Notes: generated by a model not told the origin, from the sequence alone. DNA of 47,005 nucleotides from Chiloscyllium plagiosum (GCF_004010195.1 NC_057751.1:8560060-8607064); one strand, 5' to 3'. Counted from the stretch's first letter, positions 12,513 through 46,692 are shown. Translations and numbers: made by a program.

Positions 12513-13299
12513 CGTCACAAAGCTAGTCCCTTTTCTTTCTAAAAGCTGTTCCTTGGCTCAAGGAGACTCTGTCCTTGATTTTTTCAGCGGGGCAATAAAC
12601 CTGGCTGGTCTCCAATCATTCTGGTTTGGTACAGAGATTAAAAGGTATTGAGAGGCCTCACAAAGCTAGTCCCTTTTCTTTCTAAAAGCTGTTCCTTGGC
12701 TCAAGGAGACTCTGTCCTTGATTTCTTTCAGCGGGGCAATAAACCAGGCTGGTCTCCAATCATTCTGGTTTGGTACAGAGATTAAAAGGTATTGAGAGGC
12801 CTTTTGTTTATATGTAAACAAATGAGACTTCAGGCCAAATTGATCATGTTTTAGAAGAGATCTGTATAAAGAAAGGAGAGTGATCAGCTCTTGAGCTGAG
12901 CTGAGCAGTTTAATTCAGTCCAGAACTGGTTGGGGGTTCAACAGTGAGCTGTGTGGAAACTCTCTCTTCTGCCCTTCTAACTTCAACCTGTAAGCATCTG
13001 ACGCTTTTTTGTACTGTGTTTTAAGGGGGTTTGCTTATTGGGACTGTTGTGTATATTTGGAACAGCATACTTAAGTCTAGTTTGGATAGGCTGAGTTCTG
13101 TATGGGTTCTTTATACTGTTCTTTGTGTTTCATTGTGTCATTTTGTGAATAAATGTTTTGTCTGTTTTAAACCTGGTAGTCAACCTAGCTAACTTACTCC
13201 GGATAATTTTCACTGTACACTTCCCGAAATAACTTGCAAAGTTATGGTCTGGGCTACCTGCATAACAATGTTTTGAATGGTCTGGCCTAGTACATAACA
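12513..13299 (+). mobile_element. Solo LTR (family A relative) with internal tandem duplication
   Basis: (C/T)GTCAC...CATAACA termini; near-TSD gttt/cttt; TATAAA at 12865, AATAAA at 13148; 3' end aagttatggtctgggctacc... resembles 2464-3092. Confidence 0.75.
12515..12801. repeat. 143/144-bp direct tandem duplication
   Basis: Units 12515-12657 and 12658-12801; only two differences seen (1-nt indel, cctgg/ccagg). Confidence 0.95.
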
Positions 13300-17850: not shown

Positions 17851-19858
17851 TTTGACAAGACAATAAGTATGTGTCTTAAAGGCATACTATACCAGTTGAA
17901 ACAATACACACAGAAAGACAGCTTGATTGACATGGACAGAAGTGTGCGTTGCTGTGGGAGTCAAAATAAAGATGAGGGTGTATACATTCATTTCCATGCT
18001 CTTGCAATACATGTTAAAATCTTCTCAGAACTGTGACACTTCAAAAATGTTTTTTTGTCTTTTGTGTCATCCAGTCCTTTATGGCAACACACAAGAAAAT
18101 CAGATGTTCCCAGTTAAAAGTGCTGTTTCCTCAACGCAGAGGGATCCCAGACAATTACAGTGGCTTAGAAAACACACAGAGGCAAGGAAGGGAGGAGTGT
18201 GAAAGAAGGATTCATCATCTCAACAAAAAAGTGACAAGACAGTTGCATATCAATTCCATGATGTTCTCATATTTGTTCCAAACCGTCAGATCTCTCAGAA
18301 AAGTCTCTTGGTGTTTTGTGCAAAATAAATAACACTTTAAGTGCAGCAATCTGTACTGTAAGACTGAGAACGAGGATCCACTTGTCAAAAAAGATCTCTC
18401 AAACGGGACCTGGAACAGTGGACCCCTGATGGCACTGTAGGAGTACATTCACCATGTTCTTCCAGGTTTGATGAGTGACTCTGTTTACTCTTGATGCCCA
18501 CTGTGCTTGCCTGAGTTCACACTCAGTCTGAAGCAGAGTTAAAAGTAAAAAAAAGGGGTGGACAGAGATAGAGGTGCAAGCGATAAGATGGAATCGACAT
18601 TTGAAGAACAGCACGCACACTTGGAATCTCATGTCATCTCTCCGTCGATCGGAGATACAAATCATACAACACCACACACCGTGAATTATTCTCAAGGGCA
18701 AACACAGATGGGCAATAAATGCTGAACTTGCCAGCTCTGCCCACATCTCGCTCCTTTCTAAATGAAGCAGATGGTGCGGTTTCCCAAGGGAGGAATATTG
18801 GCCAGTCCCTTATCCAAACTGCATCACGATATAGTTTGAAAAGTAAAGAAGCAGCTCAAAGTTAAATAGGAGATGAATCAATACTGAAGCCAGGTCCTGC
18901 TGTTTCACACCCAAGTATTTGGGTTTTAGCTTGTGTGCAACTTTGTCCCAAAATAAGTGGTAGATTTTCCTGCATGCCCTTTTCTCATCCATAATGTACT
19001 GAGTACATGTCTCCACTGTTGAAGTATGAGACTTTGCAAACCATCCCAAAGGGCATTGGGTTCATGTTTCAGGACGGAAAGATGCATTGTTTAAATGTAA
19101 AGAGATTAGTTTCACAGGAAAGTACATATTCACGTGCCAGTGGAACAGGCAGAAACCGCTGCCCCACTGGGAGTAAATTGAAAATGAACTGCACGTTCTA
19201 AGTAAGATGCAGCATAAAAACAGACAGTAAAGCTAAATAAAATCTAATTAAGTTTCAATCTGTGTCCAATTCAGCTTAAATTGAAAATCCATAGAGTGCA
19301 TTTAGGCTAACACTTACAAGTAAGTAATGGTATCAATGTACAGTAATGGTTCAGTTTAAATAAGCAGAATATCTGTACTAAATACAGGCAAAAGATCAGC
19401 AATGGTTGAAGTTTCAATGACTTGATTATATCCACTGAGAATGGTAACACGAAGCAACATATATCAATACAAATCCTATATCTGTCTCTTCATTTACATT
19501 TATGGCATGGGTTATATTAGACAAATTTGAAATCATGACAAAGTGAATAACAAGGAGTTTTTTTTAACATACTACAGAAAGAATTAAATTTGGCTTTGTG
19601 ACAGCATTACCTCAGGAAGCTTGCATTATTGAGTTCACCTATGTTACAACAGGCAGTCTCCCTGAATAAAGTCCGTCCAGCCAGCTGTCAGTTGTATAAA
19701 TGTTCTTTCTTCTCCTTCTGTCACTGAAATAACTACACGGAGGCCGGTATCCCATCACCAAGTCACCTTTCATTTACACATGGACAGTACATGGACTCTG
19801 ACCAGCCAAATCAGAGCCAGCTCTCACAGCAAACAGAAACCCTGACATTCCTGGTTCT

Positions 19859-20319
19859 GTTTTTTTTTTATTTTATGAAACAGTACAGTTTACAAATAAA
19901 CAATTAACATTAACAGCCATAAACAGAGAAACAGCAAATTTACAAGGGAAAGGAATGGCAAAGCCAGACCCCAAACCCCACTGTTCAACCAGTTTTCAGG
20001 GAAATGAGGACAGACATTCCCATTTCTTTTTTTCCTATTATTTTCCTTTTCTCCCACACTACACCTAGCAGCAATAGTCCTTATTTTTCTCCAGCACCCA
20101 TGTCGAGTGTGTGCAGATGTTGGAAACAGTGAAGAACAACAAGTGCACAAATCTTTATTTATATTCCACCACCAGGAAGATAGGAAAACACACGAGTGGC
20201 CAGTGACAAACACTGCCCTTCACAAAAGGCAATGCTGTGTGATCAAACAGTGATGGGGAGGGCAGGGACTAAATCAAAATAGAGTTGGAGGGGGAAATAA
20301 TGCACTCCACTCCCTGCGG
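19859..20319 (-). mobile_element. Tx1-clade (L1 group) non-LTR retrotransposon 3' end, copy 1
   Basis: Minus strand begins PQGVECIISPSNSILI* (20319-20269), which I recognise as a Tx1-type ORF2 C-terminus; then 3' UTR and polyA. Flanked by tgacattcctg(g/t)ttct at 19843-19858 and 20320-20335. Confidence 0.75.
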
Positions 20320-20335
20320 TGACATTCCTGTTTCT

Positions 20336-20622
20336 TTTTTTTTATTTTATTAAACAAGTTACAAAACAATTTACAAAAAACGTTGACAGCTGTACACGAA
20401 AGACAGCAGTTTTACAAGGGAGGGGAGCAGCAAAGCTAGGCCCCGAACCCTACCGTTCAACCATTTTAAAGGGAGGAGGACAAACCTCAAATCCCAGTTC
20501 CACGTGTGACAAGACAATGACAATGACATTTATACATTAGACAATACCGTTACATACAAAAGTGCAGACAATACAGACCCAGCAAGCCCCCGCCCCTCCC
20601 ACCTTCCGACCGCTCTAAGGCA
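20336..20622 (-). mobile_element. Tx1-like 3' UTR, copy 2 (different subfamily)
   Basis: PolyA tail; last ~150 nt align by eye with copy 1 (tgtcctc...ggttgaac...gctttgc...tcccttgtaaa...gctgt...aaaataaaaaa), upstream part dissimilar. Flanked by acattcctgtttct at 20322-20335 and 20623-20636. Confidence 0.7.
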
Positions 20623-21019
20623 ACATTCCTGTTTCTATCTGTCAGCCAGGGCTTCCTGATTGGATCAGGTTAATAGTCCCAATCAAGGATTTCCTTGTCC
20701 ATGAGATCCACCTGGTTCCAATCACTACTGTCAACCTTCTCCAATTTCTCAGTGCTATTCTCAGCCTGAAACCCACTTCACCAGCCTCAGACATTCCCTA
20801 AAGCAGACCAATGACCACAATTCAAATGCTCCCCACCACAGCTCAACTGTCTACCCTTCATGCTGGCAATTTACTACAGTGCTGGGTGAGTGCAGCATTG
20901 TCGGTGATACTACTCATTCAGCCGAGGACCCACCAGCCCACGACACAGCATTTAGTCCACATGGAAGTTCCCAGGGGAAGGCCAAAAAAAAAAGCCATGG
21001 TGCCTCTGTAACCTCAGGA

Positions 21020-21700
21020 TAATCCAAAACACTTAGCAGTCAGTGGAGTACTTTTGAAGAGAAGCCACTGTTACAATGAGGCAACTTACGCAACACTAAC
21101 TCACAAAAAACAGCCATGTACCCATGGCAGAATCATGTTTCGCGTTAAAATTAATGTTCCCAGGTTCCAGGACTATGTGCTGAAGGACGTACTAAAGCTT
21201 GGGGCACCTGCCACCAAAGCATGTGGGGAAAGACCACCAGCTAATGTCTTTGTACCGAAGTTAAAAGGGGTCCGTTCGGATATCGGACCTTTCGGATGCC
21301 TCAAATATTCTTCATATATAGTCTTGTACAAGTAAGAAATGTTTTTGGTTTGTTTGCTGCTAAGAGTCAAGCTCCAATGTTTGTTTGTTTCTTCACATGG
21401 TACTGTACAGAACCAAACTGCTTCAGTGACTATGTCGATAAAGATATGTTTATAAGTGGAGTATATTCTTGAAATTAGAAAAAAAAAGATAGATACTGTT
21501 AATAACATGAAGAAGCATTCCCCCTGCTCTTCAAGTTCACATCTTAGAATTTTGTACATGTATCTGGGAGAACAGACATTGCCTCAGTTTAACTCCTTAT
21601 CGGAGAGATGGCACCTCTGACAGTGCAGCACTCTGTTGTGTCAGCGGAGGTTTTTAGGCCAAGGTCTCTGAACAAAGTGTTGAACCCCACCACCCTTGGA
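21020..21700 (-). mobile_element. Deu-domain SINE (SacSINE1/AmnSINE1-like), interrupted
   Basis: gtacttttgaag...cccctgctcttc...gcctcagtttaac...ggcacctctgacagtgcagcactc...ttgaaccc matches the antisense Deu domain and tRNA-type head as I recall them. Confidence 0.65.
21165..21487 (+). mobile_element. Tx1-clade 3' end (third, unrelated family) nested in the DeuSINE
   Basis: QDYVLKDVLKLGAPATKA then (frameshift) WGKTT, resembling a Tx1-type ORF2 C-terminus; ends in an A-tract at ~21479-21487. Confidence 0.65.
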
Positions 21701-23101: not shown

Positions 23102-23242
23102 CCAGTAACCAATTCTGTACACAGATGCCACAAGAGGTCCCAACAATGCCATAGCTAAATGAAGAGTAACTCTTGCACTCAATTCCTCTCACAATAAACC
23201 AGCATATTCGATCATCCTGCCTGAGGAGGAAGCTGCTTAACC

Positions 23243-24429
23243 CAAGTGTGGGAAGCTAGGGAAGTGATTGCTGGGCCCCTTGCTGAGATATTTGTCTCAT
23301 TGATAATCACAGGTGAGGTGCCAGAAGACTGGAGGTTGGCTAATGTGGTGCCACTGTTTAAGAAGAGTGGTAAGGACAAGCCAGGGAACTATAGACCAGT
23401 GAGCCTGACGTCAGTGGTGGACAAGTTGTTGGAGGGAATCCTGAGGAATAGGATGTACATGTATTTGGAAAGGCAAGGACTGATTAGGGATAGTCAACAT
23501 GGCTTTGTCCGTGGGAAATCATGTCTCACAAACTTGATTGAGTTTTTTGAAGAAGTAACAAAGAGGATTGATGAGGGCAAAGCAGTAGATGTGATCTATA
23601 TGGACTTCAGTAAGGCATTTAACAAGGTTGCCATGGGAGACTGATTAGCAAGGTTAGATCTCATGGAATACAGGGAGAACTAGCCATTTGGATACAGAAC
23701 TGGCTCAAAGGTAGAAGAGAGAGGGTGGTGGTGGAGAGTTGCTTTTCAGACTGGAGGCCTGTGACCAGTGGAGTGCCACAAGGATCGGTGCTGGGCCCTC
23801 TACTTTTCGTCATTGAAAGAAAGATTTGGATGTGAACATAGGAGGTATAGTTAGTAAGTTTGCAGATGACACCAAAATTGGAGGTGAAATGGACAGTGAA
23901 GAAGGTTACCTCAGATTACAATGGGATTTTATTTAGATGGGCCAATGGGCTGAGAAGTGGCAGATGGAGTTTAATTTCGATAAATGTGAGGTGTTGTATT
24001 TAGGGAAAGCAAATCTTAGCAGGACTCATACACTTAATGGTAAGGTCCTAGGGAATTTGCTGAACAAAGAGACCTTGGAGTGCAGGTCCATAGCTCCTTG
24101 AAAGTGGAGTCACAGGTAGATAGGATAGTGAAGAAGGCGTTTGGAATGCTTTCCTTTATTGGTCAGAGTATTGAGTACAGGAGTTGGGAGGTCATGTTGC
24201 GGCTGTACAGGACATTGGTTAGGCCACTGTTGGAATGTTGCGTGCAATTCTGGTCTCCTTCCTATTGGAAGTTTGTTGTGAAACTTGCAAGAGTTCAGAA
24301 AAGATTTGCAAGGATGTTGCCAGGGTTGGAGGATTTTAGCTATCGGAAGAGGCTGAACAGGCTGGGGCTGTTTTCCCTGGAGCATTGGAGGTTGAGAGGT
24401 GACCTTATAGAGGTTTACAAAATCATGAA
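23243..24429 (+). mobile_element. CR1 LINE ORF2 RT fragment (disabled)
   Basis: VPEDWRLANVVPLFKK...GNYRPVSLTS...SQHGF...MDFSKAF, then [10 protein letters not shown] and FADDTK with frameshifts; truncated at both ends. Confidence 0.95.
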
Positions 24430-42399: not shown

Positions 42400-43325
42400 C
42401 TTGGGCAGTAGGCAGTTTCATGCTCCTCTTGCAGGATGTAGAAGGTAAGGGTCACCACGAGTGACCCTGCTGACTTCGCCTGAGAGAATTGCACCCAACT
42501 CCAGCTCCTCACAGACCGCGTTAAGGAACTGGAGCTGGAGCTGGATGAACTTCAGATCATTTGGGAGGCTGAGGGAGTGATAGAGTGGAGTTAAAGGGAG
42601 GTAGTCAAGTTACCTAAAGTTACGAGATAAAGGTAGATGGGTGACCATCAGAAGAGGGAAAGGGAATAGGCAGTCAGTGCAGGGATCCCCTGTAGCCGTT
42701 CCCCTCAATAATAAGAATACCGCTTTGGATACTGTTGCGACGAACAACCTATCAGGGGAAAGCCACAGCACCTAGATTTCTGGCACTGAGCCTAGCTTTG
42801 TGGGTCAGAACGGAAGGGAGGAGAACAAGAGAGCTATAGTGATAGGAGATTCAATGGTTAGAGGAACAGACAGGAGATTCTGTGGTCGCAAACCAGATTC
42901 CCGGATGGTATGTTGCCTCCCAGGTGCCAGGGTAAGAGATGTCTCAGATCAGGTCTACAGGATTCCTAAGGGGGAGGGTAAGCAGCCAGATGTCATGTTA
43001 CACATCAGTACTAATGACATAGTTAGGAAAAGGGATGAGGACCTGAAAAGAGAACATAGGGAGCTTGGTTGGAAGTTAAAAGGCAGGATGAGCAGAGTAG
43101 TAATCTCAGGACCAGTGCCATGGGCTAGTGAGGCTAGGAATAGAGAGAGAGTGTAGCTGAACACAGGTCTGCAGGGCCTGTGTAGGATGGATGGCTTCAG
43201 ATAGTGGGATGCATTCCGGGGAAGGTGGGACCTGTGCAAGGAGGATGAGTTTCACTTGAACTGGAGGGATACCAATATCCTGGGCAGGAGATTTGCTAGA
43301 GCTCTTCAGGAAGGTTTAAACTAGT
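42400..43325 (+). pseudogene. CR1 ORF1: zinc finger/leucine zipper plus SGNH esterase (disrupted)
   Basis: CSSCRM*...CTQLQLLTDRVKELELELDEL; AIVIGDSMVRGTDRRFCG...VCCLPGARVRDV...HISTND; DEFHLNWRDT. Confidence 0.88.
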
Positions 43326-43449
43326 TTGACACTCATCCAAAGCTACAGATCAGAGGTTGAGACAACTGGTGAACAGGTAGATGCAGTGTGCAGAGAGTCT
43401 GTGAGGAAGGATAGACAGTTGATATGGCAAAGGTATACTCAGTGCGATG

Positions 43450-46200
43450 GATTGAATTGTGTCTATTTTAATGCAACAAGAGTCAGAAATAAGGGTGATG
43501 AACTTACAGCATGGATCAGTACTTGGAACTGTGATGTTCTGGCCATTACAGAGACTTTGATACCATTAGAGCAGGAACGGTTGTTGGATGTTCCCGGGCT
43601 TATATGTTTCAAAAGGACTAGGGATTCAGGTAAAAGAGGTGGGGGCTGGCATTGCCAATCAGGGGTAGTATTACAGCTACAGAAAGGGAGGTCATCGAGG
43701 AGGATTTGTCTACTGAGTCAGTATGGGTGGAAGTCAGAAACAGGAATACAGCAGTCACTTTATTGGGAGTTTTCTACAGACCGCCCAATAGCAACAGAGA
43801 CGGAGGAACAGATTGGGAGGCAGATTTTGGAAAGGTGCAAAAGTAACAGGGTTGTTGTCATGGGCAACTTCAACTTCCCTAATATTGGTTAGAACCTCCT
43901 TAGTGCAAATAAATTTAGAAGGGGAAGATTTTGTCAGGCATGTCTAGGAGGAATTCCTGATTCAATATGTAGATAGGCCAACGAGAGGAGAGGCCATATT
44001 GGCAATGAACCAGGGCAGACATCAGATCTCTCAGTGGGAAAGCATTTCAGTGATAGTGATCACAACTCCCTGACTTTTACAATAGTCATGGAGAGGGATA
44101 AGAGCACACAGTATGGGAAACAATTTAATTAGGGGAGGGGGAATTACAATGCGATTAGGCATGAACTGTGGGGCATAAACTGGGAACAGATATTCTCAGG
44201 GAAATGCATGACAGAAATGCATGGGTGTTGTTTAGGGAGCACTGGCTGCAAGTGCTGGATAGGTTTGTGCCACTGAGGCAAGGAAGAGATGGTAGGGTGG
44301 AGGAACCTTGGATGATAAGAGATGTGGAACATCTCATCAAGAGGAAGGAGGAAGCTTACCTGAGGGTGAGGAAGCAAAGATCAGACAGGGCTCAGGAGGG
44401 TTACCAGATAGCCAAGAAAGAGCTGAAAAATGGACTTAGAAGAGCGAGAAGGGGCATGGAAAACTCTTGGTGGGTAGGATTAAGGAAAACCCCAAGGCAT
44501 TCTACACTTATCTAAGGAACAAGAGGATGGCCAGAGTGAAGGTAAGGTTGATCAGGGATAGTGGAGGAAACCTGTGCCTGGAGTCGGAGGAGGTGGAGGG
44601 GGTCCTTAATGAACACTTTGCTTCACCACTGAGAGGGACTTTGTCATTTGTAAGGACAACGTGAGACAGGCTGATATGCTCAAACAGGTTGATGTTAAGA
44701 AGGAGGATGTGCTGAAAATTTTGAAAAAATATGAGGACAGATAAGTCCCCTCAGCCAGATAGGATATATCCAAGGTTACTGCAGGAAGCAAGGAAGAGAT
44801 TGCTGCACCTTTAGCGATGATCTTTGTGTCCTCACTGTCCACTGGGGTAGTACCAGATGATGGAGAGTGACAAATATTTTTCCCTTGTTCAAGAAAGGGA
44901 ATAGGGATAATCCTGGAAATTATAGACCAGTCAGTCTTATGTCGGTGGTGGGCAAATTATTGGAGAGGATTCTGAGAGACAGGATTTATGATTATCTGGA
45001 AAAGCATAGTTTGATTAGAGATAGTCAGTATGGCTTTGTGAGGGGCAGGTCATGCCTCACAAACTTTATTGAATTCTTTGAGGATATGACAAAAGACATT
45101 GATGAAGGTAAAGCAGTGGATGTGGTGTATGTGGATTTCAGCAAGGCATTTGATAAGGGTCCCCATGGTAGGCTGATTCAGAAAGTGAGTCACCATGGGA
45201 TTTAGGGAAATTTGGCTGTCTGGAATACAGAATTAGCTGGCCCATAGGAGACAGAGAGTGGTAGTAGATGGAAAGTATTCAACCTGGAGCTTGGTGGCCA
45301 GTGGTGTTCCACAGGGATCTGTTCTAGGACTTCTGCTCTTTGTGATTTTTATGAATGACTTGGATGCGGAAGTGGAAGGGTGGGTTAGTAAGTTTGCCAA
45401 TGATATGAAGTTTAGTGGAGTTGTGGATAGTGTGGAGGGCTGTTGTAGGTTGGCAACGGGATATTGATAGGATACAGAACTGGGCTGATCCGTGGCAGAT
45501 GGAGCTCAAACTGGAAAAGTGTGAAGTGGTTCAATTTGGAAAGTCGAATTTTAATGCAGACGACAGGGGTAAAGGCAGGATTCTTGGCTGTGTGGAGGAA
45601 CAGAGGGATCTTGAGGCCCATATCCATAGGACCCTCAAAGTTGCCACCCAGGTTGAGAGGGTTGTTAGGAAGGCATATGGTGTGTTGGCTTCCATTAGCA
45701 GGAGGATTGAATTTAAGAGCCGCGAGGTTATGTTGCAACTCTATAAAGTCCTGATTAGACCACACTTGGAATACTATGTTCAGTTCTGGTCACCTCATTG
45801 GAGGAAAGATATGGAAGCTTTAGAGGGGGTGCAGAGGAGATTTACCATGATGCTGCCTGGACTGGAGGGCATGTCTTATGAAGAAAGGTTAAGGGAGCAA
45901 GGGCTTTTCTCATTCGAGTAAAGAAGGATGAGAGGTGACTTGAAAGAGGTGTATGAAATGATGAGAGGCATAGATAGAGTGGATAGCCAGAGACTTTCTC
46001 CCGGGGCACAAATGGCTATCAAGAGGGGGCATAATTTCAAGGTGATTTGAGGAAGATTTAGGGGAGATGTCAGAGGTAGGTTCTTTACACAGAGAGCGGT
46101 GGGTGCATGGAATGCACTGCCAGCAGTGGTAGTAGACTCAGTAACATTAGGGGCAATTGAGCAACTCTTGGGTAGGCACATGGATGATAGTAAAATGTAG
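43450..46200 (+). pseudogene. CR1 ORF2: APE endonuclease plus reverse transcriptase (disrupted)
   Basis: [82 protein letters not shown]. Confidence 0.93.
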
Positions 46201-46413: not shown

Positions 46414-46692
46414 TGGTAAAAACAATGACTGCAGATGCTGGAAACCAGATTCTGGATTAATGGTGCTAGAAGAGCACAGCAATTCAGGCAGCATCCGAGG
46501 ACAGGCAAAATCCAAGTTCAGGCAAAATCGACGTTTCGGGCAAAAGCCCTTCATCAGGAATAAAGGCAGAGAGCCTAAAGCGTGGAGAGATAAGCTAGAG
46601 GAGGGTNNNNNNNNNNNNNNNNNNNNNNNNNNNNNNNNNNNNNNNNNNNNNNNNNNNNNNNNNNNNNNNNNNNNNNNNNNNNNNGGGGGGGG

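What the first reader, a model, noticed from the sequence alone, without database searches (positions are those of the whole stretch)
19843..20636. Two different Tx1-like retrotransposons stacked at the same base of an LTR: candidate LTR-targeting site-specific LINE
Seen: the motif (tg)acattcctg(g/t)ttct occurs three times (19843-19858, 20320-20335, 20623-20636). Between the copies lie two minus-strand, polyA-tailed elements. Their last ~150 nt are clearly homologous but diverged, and their upstream parts differ, so they are independent insertions rather than a tandem duplication. Removing them restores a continuous LTR (ccctgacattcctgtttctatctgtcagcc). Copy 1 keeps the peptide PQGVECIISPSNSILI*, which I recognise as Tx1-type. 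Established: the Tx1 clade includes target-specific families (Xenopus Tx1L into the Tx1D DNA transposon; Keno into U2 snRNA, Mutsu into 5S rDNA, Kibi/Koshi into microsatellites), and repeated insertion at a regenerated TSD is typical of such specificity. Inference: a shark Tx1 lineage specialised on an LTR retrotransposon's LTR, i.e. a parasite of a parasite.
Basis: partly seen in the sequence, partly recalled or inferred. Interest (0 to 1): 0.75.

Follow-up and report, generated by a model that had tools for sequence, protein, structure and literature searches.

The report
Three LINE tails stacked in LTR
Three broken jumping-gene tails, not two, sit stacked at one base inside the leftover end-repeat of another jumping gene, and relatives hit the same base in other copies of that repeat, which is likely a strong but not exclusive homing habit of the Tx1 group, already described in crocodilians.

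Summary
The three motif copies are real. A fourth, diverged copy at 20013-20027 with its own T-tail was missed. So the ~227-bp solo LTR (19725-20729, minus strand) holds three 5'-truncated, polyA-tailed inserts: E1 (154 bp), E2 (294 bp), E3 (287 bp). E1 and E3 are homologous. The Tx1-like peptide belongs to E2, which resembles neither.

Public reads and contigs show that this base is hit in other LTR copies. Nine contigs run from an E3-type tail into the LTR in exact register, and 8 of 12 listed junctions join differently truncated E2/E3-type copies to it. But only 4-21% of E3-family tail reads visibly run into the target word. That is about 50 times a generic L1 nick or more, and inconclusive for strict specificity.

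Tx1 membership could not be tested and rests on recall. LTR-preferring Tx1 families and TSD-sandwiched stacks are already in print (PMC4494074). This scan noted the same phenomenon before on other DNA of this and other genomes. The nick lies 22 nt past a CCAAT box, which leaves promoter-guided targeting open. Verdict: real, a new member of a known kind.

The parts
19720..19724 (.). left copy of the LTR's own 5-bp target-site repeat (GTCAC)
   Evidence: right copy 4 of 5 identical
19725..19843 (-). 3' part of a solo LTR (ends in CA on the minus strand); polyadenylation word near 19768-19774, degenerate in this copy, AATAAA in most reads of other copies
   Evidence: (depth rises from ~2x to ~1,400x at 19725; loose flanks there agree only 0.34; table 3)
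19844..19858 (+). target copy T1 (1 difference from T3/T4)
19859..20012 (-). insert E1: 154-bp 3' tail with polyA, homologous to the 3' end of E3; coding partner unknown
   Evidence: 0 of 5000 shuffles
20028..20321 (-). insert E2: 294-bp 5'-truncated 3' end of a very abundant LINE family with its own short A-tail; 5' edge uncertain by 2 nt (20319-20321)
20269..20319 (-). last 16 codons and TAG stop of a LINE ORF2 (PQGVECIISPSNSILI*); Tx1-like by recall only. In reads of other copies the frame goes on for 10 further sense codons upstream (loose-end letters, read by eye)
   Evidence: no Pfam family
20322..20335 (+). target copy T3 (identical to T4)
20336..20622 (-). insert E3: 287-bp 5'-truncated 3' tail with polyA; the family goes on beyond 20622 in 283 reads (agreement 0.84); no coding sequence in this piece
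20623..20636 (+). target copy T4, still joined to the LTR's promoter side; inferred first nick between 20636 and 20637 (TTTCT/ATC on the + strand)
   Evidence: nick position inferred from where each T-tail begins
20637..20729 (-). 5' part of the solo LTR (promoter side)
20659..20663 (-). CCAAT box in LTR sense, ending 22 nt (starting 27 nt) upstream of the nick; two more CCAAT words on the + strand at 20679 and 20718
20730..20734 (.). right copy of the LTR's 5-bp target-site repeat (GTCAA)

Best explanation
Three 5'-truncated, polyA-tailed LINE-type inserts from two unrelated families sit at one base of a solo LTR, each set off by a 14-16-bp copy of the target, and were likely placed one after another by a Tx1-type endonuclease/reverse transcriptase that prefers, without being limited to, this site at the LTR's predicted TATA position. 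Shown: the anatomy, the shared orientation (inserts in LTR sense), and use of the same base in other LTR copies. Inferred from the established TPRT mechanism: the endonuclease nicks the + strand at TTTCT/ATC, the T-rich 3' end primes cDNA on the RNA's polyA tail, and a second nick 14-16 nt away makes the duplication. Each event rebuilds an intact target next to the LTR's promoter side, so the site can be hit again and copies stack. Inferred, weakly: the order E1, E2, E3, newest nearest the promoter. Inferred: the enzyme reads a degenerate word like CC(T/C)GTTT-N-T/A, the LTR family is its main multi-copy carrier, and LTR context raises the rate further. Inferred: E1/E3 are tails of a second LINE or a non-coding passenger using the same or a sister enzyme.
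For: Four target copies, three with a T-tail directly behind. In organism A contigs (run X1), 9 contigs run from an E3-type tail through the whole target, and their loose-end consensus matches the left flank of empty LTRs for 15 of 15 letters in register (table 7 against table 7; agreement 0.55). They cannot come from this locus, where E2 follows. table 5c: 8 of the 12 rows shown (373 in all) join E2-type (6 rows, 5 different break points) or E3-type (2 rows) truncated copies to the LTR at 20622-20641, all in organism C; 1 row is a stack in organism B. table 5c: 11 of 12 rows shown (15 in all) are head-to-tail stacks, with spacers that resemble the target clearly in 6, partly in 3, unclearly in 2 (judged by eye), none identical to the 14-mer. 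Raw reads (X21): 13, 24 and 71 of 334 tail reads reach 20322, 20325 and 20334 (4%, 7%, 21%), against 0.004-0.08% expected for a generic L1-type TTTT/AA nick and 0.4-1.1% for a 9-10-nt word alone. T3 and T4 are identical; T1 and T2 differ by 1-3. Tx1L endonuclease alone is sequence-specific in vitro (PMC1950540, passages).
Against: Most E3-family tail reads do not visibly reach the target; the two commonest loose ends (54 and 40 reads) agree only 0.42 and 0.47. The share for E2, the only insert with coding sequence, was not measured, because this copy's tail is too diverged (depth 32-36x). E2-family depth is 2-4 times the LTR depth, so its copies cannot each sit singly in an LTR of this likeness. 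No protein evidence ties any insert to Tx1. Junction rows are single contigs at 80% likeness, chosen by the tool as best supported, and the tool warns that such joints often come from repeats. Reads are not independent loci. The word densities rest on only 5-9 sites in one window. T2 can also be aligned to the E1/E3 family's own sequence (about 11 of 15 with a 4-nt gap), though less well than to the target (13 of 15, no gap).
Confidence: 0.55

Rival explanations
1. Promoter-guided targeting: the complex is steered by a host factor on the LTR promoter (CCAAT-binding NF-Y or the TATA machinery) and cuts the nearest T-rich step a fixed distance downstream; the 14-bp word is a passenger. Inserts land in LTR sense and a full-length copy would borrow the promoter. 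Lead taken from earlier scan notes e1-8630298 and e1-8026190.
For: The nick is 22 nt past a sense CCAAT box, the distance those notes report from other loci (unchecked AI notes, not independent evidence). Only 1 of 151 generic T/ANAAA sites elsewhere in the window has such a CCAAT. The spacers at other junctions are degenerate. The observed share exceeds the word-only expectation about 4- to 18-fold. T3/T4 identity fits re-use of the copy nearest the CCAAT box. Factor-guided targeting exists for TRE5-A (PMC3159450, start of abstract in listing).
Against: One locus only: CCAAT box and target word are linked in every LTR copy, so my data cannot separate them. Spacers at stacks keep a CC(T/C)GTTT core in 6 of 11 rows, as a sequence-reading enzyme would give. 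Tx1L specificity lies in the endonuclease itself (PMC1950540). No expression or binding data.
Confidence: 0.22
2. Strict LTR specialist: nearly all copies of these families sit at this LTR site, singly or stacked.
For: Exact-register hits in other LTR copies. My share is a lower bound, since variable T-tail length makes the aligner clip before the target, and the blurred loose-end consensus at 20335 still shows a target-like core shifted by about 3 nt.
Against: Only 4-21% of E3 tail reads visibly reach the target; loose ends are heterogeneous. The E2 family outnumbers the LTR 2-4-fold in depth.
Confidence: 0.15
3. Generic L1-type insertion: TTTCT/AT is an ordinary degenerate TTTT/AA nick, and later copies used the earlier T-tracts.
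For: The nick resembles the L1 consensus 5'-TTTT/AA-3' (PMC1950540).
Against: Each insert has its own full target copy. The same base is used in other LTR copies. The share at the target is about 50 times the generic expectation or more.
Confidence: 0.03
4. Anatomy rival, compatible with targeting: only two events happened here. E2-T2-E1 came as one transcript read through a stack at another locus (3' transduction), then E3.
For: T1 and T3 match over 16 nt (15 of 16), as one duplication around E1+E2 would give; T2 is the odd copy. Stacks are common donors.
Against: The TG at 20320-20321 can equally be a decayed CG of E2's own sequence (loose ends at 20319 and 20321). T2's two differences fall on one dinucleotide and CCCG variants of the target occur. 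No multi-copy E2-T2-E1 junction is seen among the joints listed (15 of 534 shown).
Confidence: 0.25

Closest known systems
Tx1-8_Crp and Tx1-4_AMi (crocodilian Tx1 families; Kojima 2015, PMC4494074; passages and section 14 read, supplements not available)
   Same: [quoted passage not shown]
   Different: The passages read do not say where in the LTR element they insert (supplementary figures S3-S4 could not be seen). Here the site is one base inside the LTR, at the predicted TATA position, in a probable shark lineage. Relationship by sequence not tested.
Tx1-Mar with SINEU-1/2/3 (crocodilians, PMC4494074)
   Same: Autonomous and non-autonomous families share a target inside another transposon; tandem insertions sandwich a TSD; preference ranges from 13% to 90% of copies; transcription from the flanking target is proposed.
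   Different: Their target is a Mariner DNA transposon, with two sites; E1/E3 show no snRNA head and no Rfam match above threshold.
Tx1L of Xenopus laevis (PMC1950540, passages; PMC4494074)
   Same: Site-specific LINE inserting into another mobile element (Tx1D), with specificity in the endonuclease.
   Different: The target is a DNA transposon; the bases after the nick are AGTT there and ATCT here; Tx1L is described as stringent, while the E3 family looks relaxed.
TRE5-A of Dictyostelium (PMC3159450, listing with start of abstract only)
   Same: Precedent for a non-LTR element placed at a fixed distance from a host transcription-factor complex; relevant only to the promoter-guided rival.
   Different: Pol III factors and tRNA genes, ~50 bp upstream; here a predicted Pol II LTR promoter, 22 nt downstream of CCAAT; no factor contact shown.

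Membership tests
TPRT (non-LTR) insertion | 3' polyA tail, 5' truncation, variable 7-20-bp target duplication | tested here: met
   T-tails behind T1-T3; TSDs of 14-16 bp; families go on beyond the 5' edges of E2 and E3 in 2,015 and 283 reads
Tx1 clade | RT domain groups with Tx1L/Keno in a tree | not testable with these tools
   No RT in the window's copies; no assembly held; no contig source found
Tx1 clade | APE endonuclease and two-ORF layout | not testable with these tools
   Only the last 16 codons of ORF2 are present
Tx1 clade | ORF2 C-terminus like that of known Tx1 proteins (E2) | tested here: inconclusive
   No Pfam family for the 24-aa stop-free stretch; too short for the homologue searches; the resemblance is recalled, and asserted in unchecked scan notes
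Tx1 clade | Any coding link for E1/E3 | tested here: inconclusive
   No coding sequence in either piece; no similarity to E2
Target-specific family (Kojima 2015 criterion) | More than 20% of flanks are one type of sequence | tested here: inconclusive
   E3 family 4-21% by read depth, a probable underestimate; E1 and E2 not measured; criterion
Target-specific family (Kojima 2015 criterion) | Independent, differently truncated copies at the same target, not hitch-hiking | tested here: met
   5 different E2-type and 2 E3-type break points join the LTR site (8 of 12 rows shown); 9 contigs from the 3' side
Solo LTR of an LTR retroelement | TG...CA ends, 4-6-bp target repeat, multi-copy with sharp ends, promoter and polyA words | tested here: met
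   the 5' TG is mutated in this copy, the 5-bp repeat is 4 of 5
Gypsy (Metaviridae) LTR | Linked internal pol with Gypsy domain order, PBS/PPT | not testable with these tools
   Solo LTR; no internal part among the loose ends listed; 'Gypsy' comes from scan notes only

The most novel reading that the evidence does not exclude
A vertebrate LINE that finds its site through the host's Pol II promoter machinery (CCAAT/NF-Y or TATA factors) on LTRs, inserts in sense just behind the TATA position, and takes over the LTR promoter. Two unrelated RNA families share the route, and the rebuilt target keeps the newest copy next to the promoter.
Probability: 0.2. Interest if true: 0.72.

Novelty: new member of a known kind. 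Interest (0 to 1): 0.36.

Why it matters
As it stands, this adds a probable shark example, resolved to one base, of Tx1-type homing into another transposon, with two unrelated families sharing one site. If the site is set by the CCAAT/TATA promoter rather than by the endonuclease, it would be a Pol II factor-guided LINE in a vertebrate. I did not find that in print. It would bear on how Tx1 elements switch targets so often and on site-directed gene insertion tools.

Tried and rejected
No other copy of the LTR halves, E1-E3 or the neighbouring LINE piece lies in the window. DNA motif scans found nothing in metagenome contigs or viral contigs. A homologue search could not be run for E2's short peptide. 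The neighbouring Tx1-like piece gave no hit (2 candidates, none E<=10; none), and Pfam found no family for E2's peptide (13 ORFs scanned). Rfam: one chance-level hit in 19600-21600 (E 0.92). Folding of the three tails is not significant (z -0.71, -1.48, -1.23). Tandem duplication rejected: E1/E3 are 74% alike and E2 is unrelated. The majority A at 20334 (45 of 71 reads) was not taken as proof of a TATAAA target, since longer TTTTA-type tails give the same signal. Supplements of PMC4494074 could not be read and may give the exact LTR sites of Tx1-8_Crp and Tx1-4_AMi. Look-ups by sequence and place in earlier findings were empty.

Full report
Observation. Allowing more mismatches shows a fourth copy at 20013-20027 with a T-tract directly behind it; 0 of 5000 shuffles of that interval give such a hit, and the whole window has only three motif-plus-T-tract hits, all in this locus. 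The locus therefore reads, on the + strand: LTR 3' part, T1, E1 (19859-20012), T2, E2 (20028-20321), T3, E3 (20336-20622), T4, LTR 5' part. E1 and E3 are homologous (74% over ~157 nt). E2 is unrelated to either and alone carries an ORF end, PQGVECIISPSNSILI*.

The host element. The two halves add up to 227 bp between 19725 and 20729, with a 5-bp flanking repeat (GTCAC/GTCAA). In raw reads depth rises from 1-2x to about 1,400x at 19725 and is about 2,400x at 20640-20679. Hundreds of contigs leave the element at 19724-19725 into flanks that agree only 0.34. That is a multi-copy element with sharp ends, present here as a solo LTR. It reads on the minus strand: a CCAAT box ends 22 nt upstream of the nick, and most reads carry an AATAAA word near the far end (table 3). 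That the target lies at the TATA position is inferred from this layout. The LTR is present at the orthologous place in organisms B and C (contigs bridging 19725 by 46 and 32 letters, table 8). 'Gypsy' and 'shark' are labels from recall and scan notes, not tested.

Is the site used elsewhere? No assembly is held, so I laid public runs. (19600-20799; two raw runs of organism A, contigs of B and C): of 12 junction rows shown out of 373, 8 join a truncated E2-type copy (break points 20187, 20209, 20296 twice, 20298, 20316) or E3-type copy (20449, 20460) to the LTR at 20622-20641, all in organism C. One row is a stack in organism B, one an empty LTR, two reflect internal repeats or E1/E3 homology. 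(20303-20632; one further raw run, contigs of A and C): 9 contigs of organism A run from an E3-type tail through the whole target, and their loose-end consensus matches the left flank of empty LTRs in exact register for 15 letters. Of 12 junction rows shown out of 15, 11 are head-to-tail stacks at varied break points, with target-like spacers (6 clear, 3 partial, 2 unclear by eye; none identical to the 14-mer). So the same base is hit independently by both families, and stacking is common.

How exclusive? In run X21, depth is 334 at 20358, 71 at 20334, 24 at 20325 and 13 at 20322: 21%, 7% and 4%. The first figure can be inflated by longer tails. The last two are lower bounds, since tail-length differences make the aligner clip. 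The commonest loose ends at the tail (54 reads at 20335, 40 at 20343) agree only 0.42 and 0.47. Using word densities from the rest of the window and LTR depth per 1,934 Mb read, a generic TTTT/AA nick predicts 0.004-0.08% at the LTR site, and a 9-10-nt word alone 0.4-1.1% (only 5-9 sites underlie the latter, and reads are not independent loci). The preference is strong; exclusivity is not shown, and Kojima's 20% criterion is neither clearly met nor failed. For E2 the share could not be measured. Its family depth (4,600-5,700x) is 2-4 times the LTR's, which needs stacks, more diverged LTRs or other targets.

Mechanism. The anatomy is that of target-primed reverse transcription (established knowledge): a nick at TTTCT/ATC on the + strand, priming on the polyA, a second nick 14-16 nt away, 5' truncation. 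Each event leaves an intact target attached to the promoter side. T3 and T4 are identical while T1 and T2 differ by 1-3, which weakly favours the order E1, E2, E3 with the newest copy nearest the CCAAT box. I favour (0.55) an endonuclease that reads a degenerate CC(T/C)GTTT-N-T/A word, helped by LTR context, because spacers keep that core and Tx1L endonuclease is specific on its own (PMC1950540, passages). Rivals: promoter-factor guidance (0.22; lead from scan notes, consistent with the 22-nt distance here, but not separable at one locus), strict LTR specialist (0.15), generic L1 behaviour (0.03). Separately, E2-T2-E1 may have arrived as one transduced unit (0.25).

Comparison with what is known. 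Kojima 2015 (PMC4494074; passages, section 14; supplements unavailable) reports Tx1-8_Crp and Tx1-4_AMi as preferring LTR retrotransposons, tandem SINEU-3 insertions sandwiching a TSD, shared targets for autonomous and non-autonomous families, and possible transcription from the flanking target. This locus works like those systems. Membership of the Tx1 clade could not be tested: no RT or endonuclease is present and searches gave nothing; the peptide resemblance is recalled. Searches for a shark case or a TATA/CCAAT-linked case found none relevant (listings only; the library lacks most subscription papers and Repbase reports). Earlier notes of this scan describe the same phenomenon at other loci of this and other genomes; these are unchecked and not counted as support.

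Verdict. Real and more stacked than first read; a new member of a known kind, interest 0.36. The open and more interesting question is whether the site is chosen by the enzyme's word or by the LTR promoter.

Noticed in passing
window ~21150-21489 (+): Another LINE 3' end with peptide RFQDYVLKDVLKLGAPATKACG (Tx1-like by recall) and an A-tail at ~21479-21487, outside any LTR; no target duplication found; no database hit.
   Followed up: partly
window 20492-20499 (E3) and 20012 (E1): 5 of the 11 stack junctions shown have their 5' break in 20492-20499, and E1 breaks about 10-15 nt from the equivalent place. The family's own sequence there resembles the target word, so microhomology may favour ~155-165-bp truncation products.
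   Followed up: partly
window 19842-19847 and 20640-20645: A 6-bp inverted repeat (CTGACA / TGTCAG) brackets the target word in the LTR; it could be a hairpin or a pair of factor sites.
   Followed up: no
window 19720-19724: Flanks of other LTR copies end in the same majority letters in two organisms (593 and 505 contigs, overall agreement 0.34), hinting at a weak integration-site preference of the LTR element itself.
   Followed up: no
window 19937-19964 and 20417-20450 (minus strand): E1 and E3 tails fold a similar small hairpin, with one compensatory and one one-sided change between them (read by eye); overall folding is not significant.
   Followed up: partly
window 19968-20006 and 20589-20622: The E1/E3 family has short internal tandem repeats (reads going back 39 nt; repeated unit beyond 20622).
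   Followed up: no
window 23225-23644, 43320-43892, 44861-45205: RT fragments (Pfam RVT_1, E 2e-10 and 1e-13) and an endonuclease-like fragment (Exo_endo_phos, E 0.001, below cut-off) of ordinary LINEs, CR1-like by recall.
   Followed up: partly
window 12579-12802: Two 80-nt copies 144 nt apart, 98% identical: a recent local tandem duplication.
   Followed up: no
window ~46600-46690: The window holds 78 N; a run of them lies beside a long G-run, probably an assembly gap.
   Followed up: no
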